Shown: positions 42,910-49,945, numbered from the whole stretch's first letter. The stretch is DNA of 62,454 bases, filler included, from Sphacelaria rigidula (GCA_964200075.2; 10 parts of 10 records of this genome joined end to end with filler, not necessarily neighbours in it); one strand, 5' to 3'. The notes: generated from the sequence alone by a model not told the origin. Program-made: numbers and translations.

Positions 42910-44031
42910 GCGAGTTTTTTTTTAATTCGTGGTCGGGGTTCGGTATCAGTGTATTTTCGAAGAATGTAGATAACGTGAGCCAAGAAATTTCGAGGCTACC
43001 TGCTGAGTGGTTGGGGCGTTTTCGATCTAGTATCAGGACGTGTGGGGTTAATCTAGCCACTTCTGTTGACGCTGGCGTACCTTCAAGCCCTCTTTGCTGT
43101 ATGTAAATCTTGCAATATTCGCTAGTGGTCATGATTGGCTTTGACGCTTGCGGCTGACGCACCAAGTCATTTTGAGGTCTTGATCGTGAAATCAAACGTA
43201 CTGTCTGGACCAAATCACGGGCACCTTCAAACTGTGGACATGGTTGGCCAACAAGGCATGACCAAAAGCGACGCGTGAGGGGCTGATCCCCTTCGACCAC
43301 CAAGGCAGCTTTCGTTTCGATCACTCACGTGTGTCATGCACCACTTGTAACGTGATGCTCACTACCAATAACCTCTATGATCTTACAGTGAGTAATCCAC
43401 ACACACTTCGCCGCGAAATTATTGAAAGCACCGTTCGTACGTCTCTTGTGGTGTGTCCGTACCATGAGTATGTTCTCGCGTGTCTTCACGTTTGCTCGAG
43501 TGCTGTTGGGGCCAGCTTGGTCTCAGGGTCTATTTTACTTGCTACAGAGCACACGAGGGGTAGATCGTGCAATCTACGTACAGGTGCCGTCAGCCGGGGT
43601 GACATTGTAGTGTTTTGCTACGAGCTGGGGCCAGCCTAGAGGCTGCATGAACGTTTGCAGGCGGATGCGCCGGCCAATATTTGGAGTTAGNNNNNNNNNN
43701 NNNNNNNNNNNNNNNNNNNNNNNNNNNNNNNNNNTTAATTAATTAANNNNNNNNNNNNNNNNNNNNNNNNNNNNNNNNNNNNNNNNNNNNTCTAGAATCG
43801 TTAGGAGCCTCTGAACCAGACAAAATTTCGCGAAAAAAGTGCACCCCTACCGTAGCATTGCTCGCCAAGGGAAATATGCCAGATCTCGACCGCTCATAGG
43901 TACCTCTATTAGCTTAGCCGCACTCACCTTGTCAGTCAACGTTGGCCCACAGCATCATCGAACCACACCAATGCTACACAATGTCGTTTACATGTCGGCA
44001 TACGACGGCGGCAAGTTCCAACGGTTCTCAC

Positions 44032-47000
44032 CTGAGCTTCCAACAACCCCGCCCGACTACGCAGGGTTGCAGCCAAGCCAGGATGCTTTGGGCCGAAAAT
44101 CTTCTGCTGCATCGCCTGGCACCGCTCGTAGAGCGGCTCCGCTTCGGCGTACTTGCCCTGCAATGTCGTTAAGGACGCAGACGCAGCGTGAAACGGTCGA
44201 TGTCGGACCTAGCGCGGCGGTGAGGCGCTCGCGCCATCACCCCGCTCAGGTGTGCAGGTGTGCAGCCGGCGAGCGATGTTAACAGGGCCAAGAGTATTGT
44301 GTCCGATCTCGACGGCTTAGAGATATGGGTTGGCCTCGCCGCACTCACCCTCTCAGATAGCGTTGACCACACCGGACCAGCGAGGAGCGTCAACACCACA
44401 CAAGACCGTTCACACGTCGACACACGATTACCGTGAAGACACATCGGTTCCCACCTGAGCTTGCAACAATCTCGCACGGCTGTGTAGCGTTGTGGCCAAC
44501 TTTGGGTGCTCCAGGCCGAGAACCTTCTCCTCGATCGCCTGGCACCTTTCGAAGAGTGACTCAGCCTCAGCGTACATTCCCTGCAATGTAGTACATGACG
44601 CAGAAGTAGCCTGTAACGGTCCAAGTCGGACCCACTACGGCGGCGAGACGCTCTCGCAACCACCCTGCTCCGGTGGGAAGCTCGCGAGCGATATGTGTAC
44701 ACACCCAAGGATACTGTGCCCAGTCTCGATGGCTCAGTGGGCCAACGGGTTCGCCTCACGTCACTCGCACCCTCAGTCAGCGTTGGCCAACAGGACCAGC
44801 GAACACCATCAACACCATACGAAGTCGCTCACACGCCGACATGTGACCATGAGAAAGGTACATCGGCTCTTACCTGAGCCTGCAGTAACCCCGCCCGGTT
44901 GTGAAGAGTTGTGGCCAGGGTTGGGTGCTCCGGCCCGAGAACCTTTTCCAGCATCGCTTGGCACCGCTCGTAGAGCGCCTTTGCGTCCGTATACTTGCCC
45001 TGCAATGTAGACACGCAGAAGCAGCCTACGACAGTCGGCGTCAGACTGAAAACACCGGCGGGACGTTCGCGCCACCGCCCCGCCCAGGTGTGTAGCCAAC
45101 GAGCGATGTGTGTACGCGGCCAAGAGGACGTACTATGTTCGATCTCCACGGCTCAGAGATATGAGGGGTTGGCATTGCCGCACACACCCCCTACGTTGAC
45201 GTTGACCCGCAGGACTAGCAAACAATATCGAAACCACAAAGTATCATTTCCATGCCAAATAATCCGACAACGAGAAAGTTTCATGGGCTATCACCTGGGC
45301 TTGTAACAACCCCGCACGGCTGTTAAGTATTGTGGCCAAGCTTGGGTGCCCCTGGCCGAGCACTTTCTCATCGATCGCCTGGCACCGCTCGTAGAGGGGC
45401 TCAGCCTCGGTGTACTTGCCCTGTAATGTCGTGCACAAGGTAGAGGCAGCCAACAACAGTCGAATTCGGACTCGCCACGGCGACGAAATGTTCCCGCTAC
45501 TGCCCAGCCTTGGTGCGCAACCAACGAGCGATGTTTGAACAGGGTCAAGGGTACTACACCCAATTTTGACCGCTCAGAGGTATGAGGGATTGGCCTCGCC
45601 GCATTTGCCCTCTGAGTCAACGTACGTCAACAGGACCAACCAACAACATCAGCACCACACAATGCCTTTCATACATCGACACACAAATGAGAAATATTTT
45701 CATTGGCCCTCACCCGATCTTGCAACAACCCCGCACGGTTGTGGAGCATGGCGGCCACACTCGGGTGCCTCGGACCGAGAGCCTTCTCCTTCACCGCCTG
45801 GCACCGCTCGTAGAGTGGCTCGGCCTCGGCGTACTTGCCCTGCAATGTAATACATGAGACGGGAGCAGCCTAAAACAGTAAACGGTATACCTTGAGAGGT
45901 GGTGGGACGTTCGGGCCACCGCTCCGCCTAGGTGTGCAGCAGGTGAGCGCTGCGTGTACAGGGCCAAGGGTACCATGCCGTGTCTCGACGGCTCAGAGGT
46001 GCGGCAGGTTGGCATTGTCGCACTCACCCTCTCAGTCAACATTGGCCCACAGGGCCAGCAAGCAACATCTACACCACACAATGTCGTTCACACATCGACA
46101 CACGACTAGGAGGAAGTTCCGTCGGTTTTTACCTGAACTTGCAACAAACCCCGCAAGTTGTGACCCAACAGAGGCAGCGAGACTCGTTCGCTACCACCCC
46201 ACCGACCGCTATGAGTATGTGTACAGGATCGAGGACACTGTGCCCGATCTTGACGGCTCAGAAATACAACAGGTTGGCTCCATGGCACTCACCCTCTAAG
46301 TCAACGATGGCCCACAAGACTATGAACAGCGCACAACATCAACACCACACGATGTCGTTCGAATTTTGACACACAACCACGAGAGAGTGTCAACGGCTAT
46401 CGCCTCAAGCTTCAACAACCCCGCACGGTGATAAAACGTTCTAGTTTAGTCAGAATTCGTCGGGTCGCGACCCTATCCCTATCCCTATCCGTAACCCCGA
46501 CCCTAAACATCACCGCCCTAGCCGTGACCCTAGCCCTAAATCCTGCATCGCCTGGCACCTGAGCTTGCAACAACCCCGCACGGCTTCCCAGCGTTGCCGC
46601 CAATGCTGGGTGCTCCGTCCCAAGAAGCTTCTCCTGCATCGCCTGGCACCACTCGTAGAGTAGCTTAGCCTCGGCGTACTTGCCCTGCAATGTAGGACGT
46701 GAAGCAGTCTGTAATAGTCAACGTCGGACCAACAACGGTTGCGAGACGCTCGCTTCACCGCCCCACCTAAGTGTGCAGCCGGCGAGCGATGTCTGAATAG
46801 GCTCAACATTACTATGTCCGACCTCGACGGCTCGAAGGTTCAACGGGGTGGTCTCGCCGCATTCATCCTGTCAAAGTTGGCCCACAGGACCAGCGCATGA
46901 CGTCCACGCAGCGCAATGCTGTTCACGCGTCAGCAAAAGAGTACGACGATGTTATATCGGCTCTCACCCGGGCTTGCAACAACTTCGCACGGCTATGAAG

Positions 47001-48383
47001 TGTGGCGGCGAAGACTGGGTGCTCCGGACCGAGAACCTTCTCCCTGATCACTTGGCACTGCTCGTAGAGTATCTCAGCCTCGTCGTACTTGCCCTGAATA
47101 TACCCCAGCGCGTCACGTGTCGACAGTCAAGATGCAGTTCACGACACAGAAACAGCCCATAAGAGCCAACGTCGGATCTACAACGACGAGGAGACGCTTG
47201 CGCAACCGCCCCGACCTGAGGTGCTGTCAATGAGCGCTGTGTTTACAGGGCCAAGGGTACAATGCCCGATACCGATGGCGAAGAGGTACGACGGGCTGGC
47301 AATGCAGATCCTGTCGGTTAACGTTAACCCAGAGGACTAGCGACCAACATCAGCACTCACTACACAAAGTCGTTCATACGTCGAGATACTTCTACAACAA
47401 AGTTCCATCGATTCTCACCTGAGCTTGAAACAACCCCGCACGGTTGTCAAGCGTCGCGGCCAAACTCACGTGCTCCGGGCCAAGAAACTTCTCCTCGATC
47501 GCATGGCACCGCTCGTACAGTGGCTCCGCTTCGGCGTACTTGCCCTGCAATGTAGCTAAGGACACAGAAGCGCGTATAGGGGTCAATGTCGCACCTACAA
47601 CGGCGGCGAGGCGCTCGCGCCATCACCCCGCTTACGTGTGCAGGTGTGCAGCGGGCGAGCGATATTTGTGTACAGGGTCAAGAGTACTGTGTCCAATGTC
47701 GACAGCTCAGAGGTATACCGGGTGGACCTAGCCGCACTCACCCTCTCAGTCAGCCTTGGCACGCAGGACCCGCGAGAAACACCAACACCATACGATGCCG
47801 TTCACACGTCGACACGCGACTGCGAGAAAGCCACACCGGCTCTCACCTGAGCTTGCAACAAATGCGCACGGCTTCTCATCGTTGCGGCCAAATCAGGATG
47901 ATTCAGGCCCAGAACTTTCTCCTGTATCGCCTGGCACCGCTCGTAGAGTAGCTCAGCCTCGGTGTACTTGCCCTGCAATGTAGTACACGGCGCAGAAGCA
48001 GCGTATAACAGTTACCGTCGGACACACAACAGCGGCGAGCTGCTCGCACCACGGCCCCGCCCAGGTGTACAGCTGGCAAGCGCTCTATGTACAGGGTCGA
48101 GGGTACAATACCCAATCTCGACCGCTCAGAGGTACAACGACCTGGCTCCGCCGCACTCACCTTCTCGGCTACCGTTGGCCCACAGCACAAGCACAATAAA
48201 AATCAGAGTATCGTTTACAGTAGCACCCGACAACGGTAATGTTCCATCTGTTTTCACCTGAACTTCCAACAACCCCGCGCGATTGCAGACCGTGGTGGCC
48301 AGGCTTGGGTGCTCCGGGCCGAAAACATTCTCTTTGATAATCTGGCATCGCTCGTAGAGAGGCTCAGCCCCGGCGTACTTGCC
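44032..48383 (-). CDS. Kinesin-light-chain-like TPR array, one 126-bp phase-0 exon per 42-aa repeat (probable NB-ARC-TPR type gene fragment)
   Basis: Ten intact exons: 48258-48383, 47847-47972, 47419-47544, 46968-47093, 46559-46684, 45714-45839, 45295-45420, 44874-44999, 44455-44580, 44032-44157. Each is flanked by cag| and |gt; consensus GKYAEAEPLYERCQAI.EKVLGPEHP.LA.TL..RAGLLQAQ. Two broken units at about 46133-46162 and 46404-46558. Confidence 0.92.
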
Positions 48384-48484
48384 CTGGAATAGAAACGACA
48401 GCGAGAGACGAATCTCAGTCCGACTAAGATTTGAGTTGGGTTATGGTGAAAGTACGTTTGAGATAACTCCACCCTTTCGTTAAA

Positions 48485-48560
48485 TCATATGGCGAAACGG
48501 GGATGCCCCGGGCCAAGGGATCCCTCTGTAATGCTATATCGCTTTGGCACGCACTCGAGC
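48485..48560 (-). pseudogene. Highly degenerate TPR exon remnant
   Basis: ITEGSLGPGHPRFAI* resembles EK.LGP.HP.LA. Confidence 0.4.
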
Positions 48561-49686
48561 TGCCTGCTAGTAACTCTCGTGAATACCTTTTGGGTAGAGG
48601 CGTGACTAAGTGTTTTCTCCATCACACTTTCGACCCCTCCCCTTCCTGGGAACAAATCATTGGTATCAAGGGATGAACCCACTCATCTCTCCCCTGGTAC
48701 ACGGCTTGCACTTTGGTCTCGCGGATTGGATCAGCTCCTCCCCACTGCGTCGACTCACGTTAAACAATTCAGTCAACTCTTTCCATTACTGACGTACTCA
48801 CGCTTCTAAAGACGGAAATCAGAGTGGAGATTGAACCCAAACACGTCACGTTTTTACGCGATTTAGCTTCACTAGAGCCAAAAAATACGTCAAAGTTGGC
48901 TCAGTTCCCAAGGGCAAAGCCATAGCGTACTTGACTCGGAATTTAATTTCGAAAGAGTAGCCCATTCAAGTTTCGATCGAGAAAATAGAATCGTCTTTTT
49001 TGGTATTTTGAATTTTCTATCGAGGAAAGTAAAACTGATGCACGAGCCCAGGACTGCTGCTGCATGTTGTTTACTGTCTGTTGTAGCTGTGTGCTGTATG
49101 TAACATACGTAGCCGGTAACGGTAAATAATGGTTTGAAATCATTATCCAAATTTTTCACATTACCATTAGAATGATAGTGGCCAGTTATAACTGGCACCA
49201 TTTCCGAGCTCTTGTAATGCGAGTTTCCACGAGTCAAGGACACTGTACTTTTACAGGCTTTGGTGCGGGTGACGTGCATCGTCACTGACGGTACTCTAGT
49301 GTGTGCCATCTCTCAAGCACCTAGCTATTAAGCACTGCTCGAGAGCGCGGATAGAGCCCACACTTTTGAACAGATGCAAATATTAAGCCATCTACAACAA
49401 ATTTCACAAAATTACCGATCGACTCACACGTGAGCCTGCAACACCGCCCAGTTTCTGTTCCGTCTTGAGCGGCTCTCATGTGAGCCGCCCCGACGCATAT
49501 TATTTCTCTTATATCTGATATCGGGTGCTTCGAAGATCCAAACGGGGGGCGCAGAAAGGCCTCTTGGTTGACTTTGTAATGAATGCACACTCTGGACAAT
49601 GGACACAACAGTAGTCCGCTGCTTCAGCAATAGACGCGGGAGAAAGCCTATCGATATATGTTATCGAACACGACAGATGATGAAAC

Positions 49687-49945
49687 ACACCTGTTAATTG
49701 TGTTATGGGCAACGCACACAAGCCCGAGACAAATGTATTGCGTAACGACAAGCCAGAGACACCTGTATCGTGTTATGGGCAACGCACACAAGCCAGAGAC
49801 ACCTGTATCATGTTACGGGCAACGCCCACAAGCCAGTAACACCCGTATCGTGTTATGGGCAACGCCCACAAGCCAGTAACACCTGTATCGTGTTATGGGC
49901 AACGCCCACAAGCCAGTAACACCCGTATCATGTTATGGGCAACGC
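49687..49945. repeat. 40-bp minisatellite running into the gap
   Basis: ACC(C/T)GTATCGTGTTATGGGCAACGCCCACAAGCCAGTAAC, about 6 head-to-tail copies with no spacers. Confidence 0.92.

What the first reader, a model, noticed from the sequence alone, without database searches (positions are those of the whole stretch)
43870..48170. Each intron of the TPR array hides a fossil second TPR exon, mostly sharing the same stop codon
Seen: the roughly 295-bp introns are homologous to each other, and their centres translate on the minus strand as a decayed TPR in register with the live exons. Examples: from 45609 down, GKCGEANPSYL*AVKIGCSTLDPVQTSLV; near 48160, GECGGARSLYL*AVEIGYCTLDPVHRALA; near 46867, DECGETTPLNLRAVEVGHSNVEPIQTSLA. 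The live exon reads GKYAEAEPLYERCQAIEEKVLGPEHPSLA. Position 12 is a stop (TGA, once TAA) in about 9 of 11 copies, is CGA (Arg) near 46830 and TTC near 47280. An AG precedes the fossil in several copies. Inference: the amplified 420-bp unit is a live-plus-dead TPR dimer of two subtypes (ERCQAI versus YLRAVEIG). The dead copies could be inert relics, poison exons or a donor reservoir for diversification.
Basis: partly seen in the sequence, partly recalled or inferred. Interest (0 to 1): 0.72.

Follow-up and report, generated by a model that had tools for sequence, protein, structure and literature searches.

The report
Dead TPR exon inside every intron
In a brown-alga-type candidate immune-receptor gene, every intron of a tandem repeat array carries a decayed copy of a second repeat exon, killed by the same stop codon; dead exons of this kind in such genes have already been described in print.

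Summary
On the minus strand of 43864-48383 lie 10 spliceable 126-nt TPR exons (period about 420 nt). There are 11 homologous intron units, and each holds one decayed TPR exon in register with the live ones. Nine of the 11 carry a stop triplet at codon 12 (TGA eight times, TAA once); the other two have CGA and TTC. The likeness beats column-shuffle controls at DNA level (0 of 2000) and profile level (0 of 200). A profile built from the fossils alone finds only TPR_12/TPR_10 proteins among 1.84 billion. Single fossils, however, score nothing in Pfam (0 of 11).

The fossil is a dead copy of a distinct repeat subtype (LRA[IV]EI) that is alive in brown-algal NB-ARC-TPR proteins. Its stop sits at the near-invariant Arg12.

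Best reading: an exon inactivated before the roughly 420-nt unit was amplified, carried along as intron and decaying since. I found no intact splice signals, no exchange with the neighbouring live exons and no conserved RNA fold. One spliced contig skips a whole intron.

One oddity stays open: the copies differ from each other in a weakly coding-like way (dN/dS 0.44).

Inactivated TPR exons in such introns, and the reservoir idea, were published for Ectocarpus in 2012. This is a tidy new instance of a known kind.

The parts
48258..48383 (-). live TPR exon 1 (126 nt, phase 0, ERCQII type)
   Evidence: AG before and GT after. Matches Pfam TPR_10 (5.9e-5) and TPR_12 (1.3e-4).
47847..47972 (-). 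live TPR exon 2
   Evidence: A contig in X7 and X9 joins it to exon 3.
47419..47544 (-). live TPR exon 3
46968..47093 (-). live TPR exon 4
46559..46684 (-). live TPR exon 5, followed by the rearranged 719-nt intron
45714..45839 (-). live TPR exon 6
   Evidence: Used as the query.
45295..45420 (-). live TPR exon 7
44874..44999 (-). live TPR exon 8
44455..44580 (-). live TPR exon 9
44032..44157 (-). live TPR exon 10 (last in the piece)
48036..48161 (-). fossil exon copy 1; TGA at 48128-48126; no AG directly before it
47607..47742 (-). fossil copy 2; TGA at 47709-47707, a further TAG at codon 5, later frameshift
   Evidence: The spliced contig skips it.
47190..47310 (-). fossil copy 3; 5-nt deletion at its start; TTC at 47282-47280 in place of the stop
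46742..46867 (-). fossil copy 4; CGA (Arg) at 46834-46832; frame open for 44 codons; AG before it; no GT at the phase-0 end
46178..46293 (-). fossil copy 5 (in the 719-nt intron); TGA at 46260-46258
45903..46028 (-). fossil copy 6 (in the 719-nt intron); TGA at 45995-45993
45484..45609 (-). fossil copy 7; TGA at 45576-45574
45059..45188 (-). fossil copy 8; TGA at 45155-45153; 4-nt insertion (frameshift)
44644..44769 (-). fossil copy 9; TGA at 44736-44734 and a second TGA at codon 3
44221..44349 (-). fossil copy 10; TAA at 44319-44317; 3-nt deletion, later frameshift
43864..43928 (-). fossil copy 11, cut off at 43864 by a high-copy repeat; TGA at 43896-43894, out of frame
46410..46474 (-). 5'-truncated relic of a live-type exon (unit without a usable exon)
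   Evidence: nhmmer with the exon profile: positions 56-121, E = 0.0015. Sequence read.
46133..46186 (-). second 5'-truncated relic of a live-type exon
   Evidence: nhmmer: positions 77-126, E = 0.47, weak. Its exon tail followed by GT was read.

Best explanation
The array is the TPR domain of a brown-alga-type NB-ARC-TPR-like gene, in which each 42-residue repeat is one 126-nt phase-0 exon.

Proposed history:
- An ancestral pair of neighbouring exons encoded two repeat subtypes: ERCQAI, and LRA[IV]EI after it.
- The second exon was lost from the mRNA. Its Arg12 codon CGA became TGA, and it lacks an acceptor tract and a donor. The order of these losses is not known.
- The dead exon and its two short flanking introns then became one intron of about 295 nt.
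- The whole 420-nt unit (live exon plus intron with dead exon) was then copied in tandem at least 12 times at the DNA level, presumably by unequal exchange.
- The dead exon rode along as passive intron sequence and has been decaying since by substitutions, frameshifts and extra stops.

Shown here: the homology, the subtype, the shared stop, the star-like relation of the units, the lack of splice signals, and splicing across a whole intron.

Inferred: the order 'death first, amplification second', and the mechanism of amplification.
For: Homology and subtype: as given under the observation check.

Stop shared by descent:
- 9 of 11 copies have a stop triplet at the same columns, and 10 of 11 have T at its first base.
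- The unit tree is star-like. Pairwise differences are 0.29-0.41 for most pairs; the exceptions are 47846/44454 at 0.19, copy 44873 at 0.25-0.28 to these two, and the cut last unit 44031 at up to 0.46. The two copies without a stop are no more distant than the rest.
- Recurrent CGA>TGA is unlikely. Intron CpG observed/expected is 1.05, and at 28 consensus CpGs only 69 of 299 cells are TG or CA.

Decay:
- 6 of 11 copies carry further stops, frameshifts or deletions within codons 1-29.
- Codons 30-42 no longer resemble a TPR: 11 of 39 nt identical.
- Diversity among copies is 0.326 in the fossil and 0.362 in the rest of the intron (P = 0.12). The third positions of the live exons stand at 0.349.

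Not an exon now:
- AG lies before it in only 7 of 11 copies, behind a purine-rich stretch.
- There is no conserved GT at the phase-0 end.
- One contig each in X7 and X9 joins 47543 to 47846. It skips exactly the 302-nt intron with GT..AG ends on the minus strand, with 100 letters on the shorter side. The DNA run X1 has no such joint. X7 and X9 come from one study, and their kind is only guessed to be RNA.

No exchange with the neighbouring exons, at 40 diagnostic sites:
- Departures in the fossils are live-like in 22 cases against 43 other (34%; one third is expected from random change).
- Departures in the live exons are fossil-like in 24 cases against 42 other (36%).
- No run is longer than 2.

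No RNA element: Rfam gave 0 matches at E <= 1. RNAalifold on 10 introns gave -17.9 kcal/mol with a covariation term of +0.63.

[quoted passage not shown] Live relatives show duplicated multi-repeat units, such as P0093 464-548 and 627-711.
Against: The copies differ from one another in a coding-like way in the TPR frame, codons 1-29.
- Single-change codons are 39 synonymous against 52 non-synonymous: 43% against 28% expected, P = 0.0013. The other two frames give 24% and 20%.
- NG86 dN/dS is 0.44 (bootstrap 0.29-0.62). Live exons give 0.31. Four non-coding control readings give 0.64-1.13.
- Neutral star simulations reach a value that low in 0 of 400 runs (rates taken from the rest of the intron) or 9 of 400 (rates from the fossil itself).
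- The signal also lies downstream of the stop (codons 13-29, P = 0.004).
- Fossil codons 1-29 are slightly less diverse than the rest of the intron (0.311 against 0.362, P = 0.04).

This is not expected if all divergence came after the exon's death.

The signal is not robust, however. It falls to P = 0.098 without two near-duplicate copies, and to P = 0.40 when distinct alleles rather than cells are counted.

Other gaps:
- Homology of the two intron halves could not be shown. The best shared motif is matched by 22 of 500 shuffles.
- The spliced contig differs from the window at 10 of 226 letters, so it may come from another strain or a close paralogue.
- The second joint (45419 to 45713, X9) has only 28 letters on its shorter side, below the 31 the tool asks for.
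Confidence: 0.65

Rival explanations
1. The second exon was still coding while the array expanded and its copies diverged. The TGA arose later and spread through the array by unequal exchange or conversion, silencing one repeat subtype throughout.
For: - Coding-like differences among copies: dN/dS 0.44, with 0 of 400 or 9 of 400 neutral simulations as low.
- The 15-nt window with the lowest diversity in the intron (0.233) covers the stop.
- One copy keeps CGA and an open frame of 44 codons.
Against: - The site three bases after the stop (third position of codon 13) varies G/T/C among TGA copies. A recent conversion sweep would have made it uniform.
- The two copies without a stop are not outliers in the star-like tree.
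- The low diversity around the stop matches the most conserved residues of the repeat (Y-L-R-A), so it needs no sweep.
- The periodicity signal is not robust.
Confidence: 0.13
2. The fossils are kept as silent cassettes that exchange sequence with live LRA[IV]EI-type exons at other NB-ARC-TPR loci. This is the 'reservoir' model proposed for Ectocarpus. Selection on the donated segments would keep them coding-like in spite of the stop.
For: - The same coding-like pattern, which also lies beyond the stop codon.
- The hypothesis is in print for this gene family (PMC3341825, passage in section 28).
- The live counterpart subtype exists in relatives.
Against: - There is no sign of exchange with the live exons of this array in either direction: 34% and 36% of departures, against one third expected, and no runs.
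- 6 of 11 copies have frameshifts or extra stops.
- Codons 30-42 are fully decayed.
- The 2024 ROCO paper states that somatic recombinant loci have not been reported in brown algae (PMC11378527, passage).
- No other locus of this genome was available to test.
Confidence: 0.1
3. The fossil is a regulated poison or alternative exon, or a splicing-control element. Its start also reads as a near-consensus donor (G|GTGAGT). Inclusion would truncate the protein or send the mRNA to decay.
For: - AG lies directly before 7 of 11 copies, and the GGTGAGTGC start is kept in 6 of 11.
- Diversity is slightly lower than in the rest of the intron (P = 0.04).
Against: - There is no pyrimidine tract before the AG and no conserved donor at the end.
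- The juxtaposed AG and GT are one base out of register for recursive splicing (read).
- The only bridging spliced contig removes the intron whole.
- A splicing element would not give three-base periodicity.
Confidence: 0.05
4. The resemblance is a chance effect of G+C-rich intron sequence.
For: - Single copies score nothing in Pfam (0 of 11).
- nhmmer finds 1 of 11 units at E = 0.039.
Against: - 0 of 2000 and 0 of 200 shuffles reach the observed scores, and the match is in exact register.
- The fossil-only profile retrieves TPR_12 proteins at down to 4.2e-20.
Confidence: 0.01

Closest known systems
Inactivated TPR exons in introns of Ectocarpus NB-ARC-TPR genes (Zambounis et al. 2012, PMC3341825; passages read)
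   Same: - One 42-residue TPR per 126-nt exon.
- Dead TPR exons (nonsense codon, lost splice sites, truncation) lie in the intervening introns on the coding strand.
- The nearest proteins to the live exons here are these very proteins (74-77% identity per repeat).
   Different: - Here the dead exon is not scattered. There is one per unit, in all 11 units, with the same nonsense codon, so it was copied as part of the amplification unit.
- The passages I read do not describe such a regular arrangement. I could not see the paper's supplementary table 1 or figure 2E.
[quoted passage not shown] 2023, Plant J; seen only as a citation and in passages of PMC11378527; the paper itself is not held)
   Same: Same gene family, and the same question of how TPR exon arrays create variety.
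   Different: That work is cited for combinatorial use of spliced exons. Here the fossils show no sign of being spliced in. Its content could bear on the poison-exon reading, and I could not read it.
Silent donor cassettes for gene conversion. The lamprey VLR cassette reservoir is named in PMC3341825; chicken immunoglobulin pseudo-V genes are recalled, not from a call.
   Same: Untranscribed or broken copies of a repeat or segment lie beside an expressed gene. Coding-like conservation in spite of inactivation would be expected.
   Different: - No conversion tracts were found in this array.
- No recombination machinery or somatic variants are known in brown algae (PMC11378527 passage).
- The constraint signal is weak.

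Membership tests
Brown-algal NB-ARC-TPR genes with repetitive TPR exons | Each TPR is encoded by one 126-nt (42-residue) phase-0 exon. | tested here: met
   10 exons of exactly 126 nt, with AG before and GT after.
Brown-algal NB-ARC-TPR genes with repetitive TPR exons | Repeat signature GKYxEA[E/D]PL[Y/F]...G..., as printed in PMC3341825, and nearest relatives within that family. | tested here: met
   Consensus of the 10 exons. The top hits are Ectocarpus, Scytosiphon, Sphacelaria, Laminaria and Pylaiella proteins, several named NB-ARC and TPR repeat-containing.
Brown-algal NB-ARC-TPR genes with repetitive TPR exons | An NB-ARC domain upstream in the same gene. | not testable with these tools
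   The piece ends 1.5 kb upstream of exon 1, and that stretch is high-copy repeat by DNA depth. No genome is held.
Brown-algal NB-ARC-TPR genes with repetitive TPR exons | Inactivated TPR exons in the introns, on the coding strand. | tested here: met
   11 fossils on the coding strand and none on the other. There is a further relic at 48556-48459.
Pfam TPR_12 / TPR_10 (fossil exons) | A single sequence reaches a match to the family model. | tested here: not met
   0 of 11 fossil-frame translations at E <= 10. Live exons: 10 of 10.
Pfam TPR_12 / TPR_10 (fossil exons) | A profile of the copies recognises family members. | tested here: met
   86 hits at E <= 1e-3, best 4.2e-20. 27 of 27 sampled hits are TPR_12 + TPR_10. 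hhalign against the live exons is in register, P = 8e-5 and 0.0015.
Poison / cassette exon | A usable acceptor (pyrimidine tract plus AG) and donor (GT) in all or most copies. | tested here: not met
   AG in 7 of 11 copies, behind a purine-rich stretch; no conserved GT at the end.
Poison / cassette exon | Inclusion in some transcripts. | tested here: inconclusive
   One bridging contig skips the whole intron. Contigs drop rare forms, and the runs are only guessed to be RNA.
Silent donor cassette (reservoir) | Conversion tracts shared with expressed exons. | tested here: not met
   Within this array only: 22 of 65 and 24 of 66 departures point to the other type (one third expected), with no runs. 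Other loci could not be tested.
Silent donor cassette (reservoir) | Coding-like constraint in spite of inactivation. | tested here: inconclusive
   dN/dS is 0.44 against control readings of 0.64-1.13. 0 of 400 or 9 of 400 simulations are as low. The signal is lost under the conservative count.

The most novel reading that the evidence does not exclude
The dead exons are not simply rotting. Their differences are biased towards synonymous sites in the old TPR frame, also beyond the stop codon. This would fit silent cassettes that still trade sequence with live LRA[IV]EI-type exons at other NB-ARC-TPR loci. It would be the first sequence-level support for the 'reservoir of temporarily non-coding exons' proposed for brown-algal candidate immune receptors.
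Probability: 0.1. Interest if true: 0.65.

Novelty: new member of a known kind. Interest (0 to 1): 0.3.

Why it matters
It gives a clean, datable example of how these repeat arrays grow. The unit copied is exon plus intron at the DNA level, and it carries along whatever lies in the intron. A nonsense codon shared by 9 of 11 copies orders the events, with death before amplification. It warns annotators that every intron of such arrays may hold exon-like sequence.

The weak coding-like signal in the dead copies is a concrete, testable handle on the published reservoir hypothesis. On present evidence it is not more than a lead.

Tried and rejected
- Tandem Repeats Finder did not report the array. 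The copies are about 67% alike, below its usual reach.
- No whole genome is held for the window, so paralogous loci could not be read.
- nhmmer with the live-exon DNA profile found 1 of 11 intron units (E = 0.039).
- Pfam on 66 translations (11 copies in 6 frames) found no TPR match. 7 of 66 had one weak unrelated match (E 0.036-0.24).
- Homology between the two intron halves of the supposed dimer was not shown. The global score of the two halves beats shuffles (0 of 500), but that rests on the exon part. The shared intron motif alone is reached by 22 of 500 shuffles.
- The look-up of sequencing runs listed no RNA holder.
- In the three runs guessed to be RNA, 14, 17 and 13 of the 30 bins had no depth. 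In the array, the bins that hold only intron, fossils included, were among them; so was one bin that holds a live exon (44821-45026).
- The joint 45419|45713 in X9 has only 28 letters on one side.
- Contigs in X7-X9 that run from about 45719 back to 47097 contradict the exon order here. They probably come from paralogues or from assembly across shared exon ends (table 5c).
- The metagenome scan with the live-exon alignment found one weak locus (L001, 58% over 19 residues), which I did not follow.
- Rfam gave 0 matches. RNAalifold gave no covariation.
- The search of earlier findings returned nothing in three look-ups.
- Teng et al. 2023 is not held. A second search found no other held paper on TPR exon relics.
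- Recursive splicing at the AG/GTGAGT junction was rejected because the two signals are one base out of register.
- Frame +1 of the fossil is open in 7 of 11 copies but shows dN/dS of 1.13, so it is not coding.

Full report
**Setting.** The window is ten pieces of about 6155 nt joined by N/linker runs. The finding lies in piece 43791-49945, and no whole genome is held, so all context is 6.1 kb. A single live exon as query found as its best relatives brown-algal proteins, at 74-77% identity per repeat. They include Ectocarpus siliculosus entries named 'NB-ARC and TPR repeat-containing protein', and proteins of Scytosiphon, Sphacelaria, Laminaria and Pylaiella. I therefore take the source to be a brown alga or a close relative; this is an inference.

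**Anatomy.** On the minus strand there are 10 exons of exactly 126 nt with AG before and GT after. Their starts are 409-451 nt apart, except for one gap of 845 nt. All 10 match Pfam TPR_12 (best 7.7e-9) and TPR_10. The introns measure 283-325 nt. The exception is one of 719 nt, which holds two more intron units whose own live-type exons are cut down to their last 50-65 nt. The 11 intron units align over their whole length, with mean column identity 67%. The last unit is cut at 43864 by a very high-copy repeat.

**Is the fossil real?** Yes.
0 of 2000 column shuffles reach that score (z = 4.9).
- The consensus sequences share 47 of 87 nt over codons 1-29, and only 11 of 39 over codons 30-42.
- Profile-profile comparison aligns fossil columns 1-37 with live columns 1-37 (P = 8e-5). 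A cleaned alignment gives P = 0.0015. 0 of 200 shuffles reach either score.
- A profile made only from the fossil translations, run over 1.84 billion proteins, gave 86 hits at E <= 1e-3 and 9 at <= 1e-10.
- All 27 hits that I sampled (the top 20 and seven further down the list) are TPR_12/TPR_10 repeat proteins.
- Against this, single fossils are too decayed for Pfam (0 of 11), and the DNA profile of the live exons finds just one unit.
- nhmmer finds exactly 11 fossil copies in the window, all on the coding strand.

**What the fossil was.** I cut 198 repeats from 23 brown-algal relatives.
- Position 12 is Arg in 161 of them.
- Positions 11-16 read ERCQAI in 40 (the type of the live exons here), LRAIEI in 5 and LRAVEI in 2.
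- The live repeats that fit the fossil profile best are of the PLYLRA[IV]EIGEKTLGP kind, up to 33 bits.
- The fossil is therefore a dead member of a second, still living subtype, and its stop replaces the near-invariant Arg12. The live exons here have CGG at that place, and one fossil has CGA.
- In live proteins this subtype sits next to ERCQAI repeats (P0092, P0095). Multi-repeat units are duplicated as blocks (P0093).

**When it died.**
- The stop triplet stands at the same columns in 9 of 11 copies.
- The units form a star-like tree. Pairwise differences are about 0.3-0.4 for most pairs; one pair stands at 0.19, and the cut last unit reaches 0.46. The two copies without a stop are not outliers.
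- CpG is not depleted (observed/expected 1.05). Only 69 of 299 cells at consensus CpGs have gone to TG or CA, so nine independent CGA>TGA changes are not credible.
- The variable site right after the stop argues against a recent conversion sweep.
- The simplest order is death first, amplification of the 420-nt unit second.

**What it does now.** Probably nothing.
- The AG before the fossil survives in 7 of 11 copies and follows a purine-rich stretch. No GT is conserved at the end.
- 6 of 11 copies have further stops or frameshifts.
- A contig present in two runs of one study joins 47543 to 47846. It removes the whole 302-nt intron with GT..AG ends, and the DNA run shows no such joint. The kind of these runs is only guessed to be RNA. 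The contig differs from the window at 10 of 226 letters, so it may be from another strain or a paralogue.
- At 40 sites that tell fossil from live exon, departures towards the other type make up 34% and 36% of all departures. Random change would give about one third. There are no runs longer than 2, so the two types do not exchange within this array.
- No Rfam family matches and no conserved fold is supported.

**What does not fit.** In the old TPR frame the copies differ mainly at third codon positions.
- Differences from consensus by codon position are 48, 47 and 73 (P = 0.02).
- Single-change codons are 39 synonymous against 52 non-synonymous, 43% against 28% expected (P = 0.0013). The other two frames give 24% and 20%.
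- dN/dS is 0.44 (bootstrap 0.29-0.62). Live exons give 0.31. The four non-coding control readings give 0.64, 0.76, 0.97 and 1.13.
- Neutral simulations from the consensus reach a value that low in 0 of 400 or 9 of 400 runs, depending on where the rates are taken from.
- The signal is also present after the stop codon.
- It weakens to P = 0.098 when two near-duplicate copies are left out. It disappears (P = 0.40) when distinct alleles are counted instead of cells. Part of it therefore rests on variants shared between copies.
- I rate it as a lead. It may be chance, divergence that partly predates the death, or exchange with live exons at other loci. None of these can be separated without the rest of the genome.

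**What is known.**
- Zambounis et al. [quoted passage not shown] They also proposed that such temporarily non-coding exons form a reservoir.
- I did not see that paper's figures or supplementary table, and Teng et al. 2023 is not held. Either may already list regular arrangements like this one.
- The passages I read do not describe what is added here: one fossil per unit, the shared nonsense codon that dates the death before the amplification, the identification of the dead subtype, and a negative test for exchange within the array.

**Verdict.** It is a new, unusually tidy member of a known kind. Interest is modest (0.3), with a small chance (about 0.1) that the coding-like decay points to the reservoir model.

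Noticed in passing
window 1-62454: The window is not one locus. It is ten pieces of 6154-6156 nt joined by N runs around a TTAATTAATTAA linker, with G+C from 0.48 to 0.54. No other piece holds a TPR exon or a fossil.
   Followed up: partly
46471-46540 (minus strand): A degenerate telomere-like run (TTAGGG, CTAGGG and GATAGGG units) sits inside the 719-nt intron. It comes straight after an 18-nt partial copy of the middle of a live-type exon that abuts the end of exon 5. This looks like a rearranged unit with an insertion.
   Followed up: no
43791-43863: A very high-copy sequence: summed contig depth is about 4e5 in DNA run X1 against 20-300 in the array. Many different loose ends lie at 43863-43865. 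A repeat, probably a mobile element end, cuts the last intron unit and its fossil.
   Followed up: partly
48529-49352: High-copy sequence (depth 1200-8800 in X1) begins about 150 nt upstream of the first live exon. The array may therefore be cut off from the rest of its gene by repeat insertions.
   Followed up: no
48459-48556 (minus strand): A further decayed TPR relic lies in the intron upstream of exon 1 (nhmmer E = 0.0028, exon profile positions 31-119). Its peptide reads ...GSLGPGHPRFA... and it is of another kind than the 11 regular fossils.
   Followed up: partly
49687-49945: A tandem repeat of 40-nt units (4.9 copies, 93% matches), nested in an 80-nt period, lies at the end of the piece.
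   Followed up: no
fossil tails, e.g. 45500-45470; alignment A4 columns 233-264: The last third of each fossil, which no longer resembles a TPR, forms a G+C-rich inverted repeat that RNAalifold predicts as a hairpin. Covariation does not support it.
   Followed up: partly
about 45719 and 47097: Contigs in X7, X8 and X9 run from the end of exon 6 back to the start of exon 4, against the order in the window. They probably come from paralogous arrays or from assembly across shared exon ends.
   Followed up: no
45609-45601: One fossil starts GGCAAATGC (Gly-Lys-Cys). It is closer to the live GGCAAGTAC than to the fossil consensus GGTGAGTGC. These are the only two adjacent live-like sites found in any fossil, too short to call a conversion tract.
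   Followed up: partly
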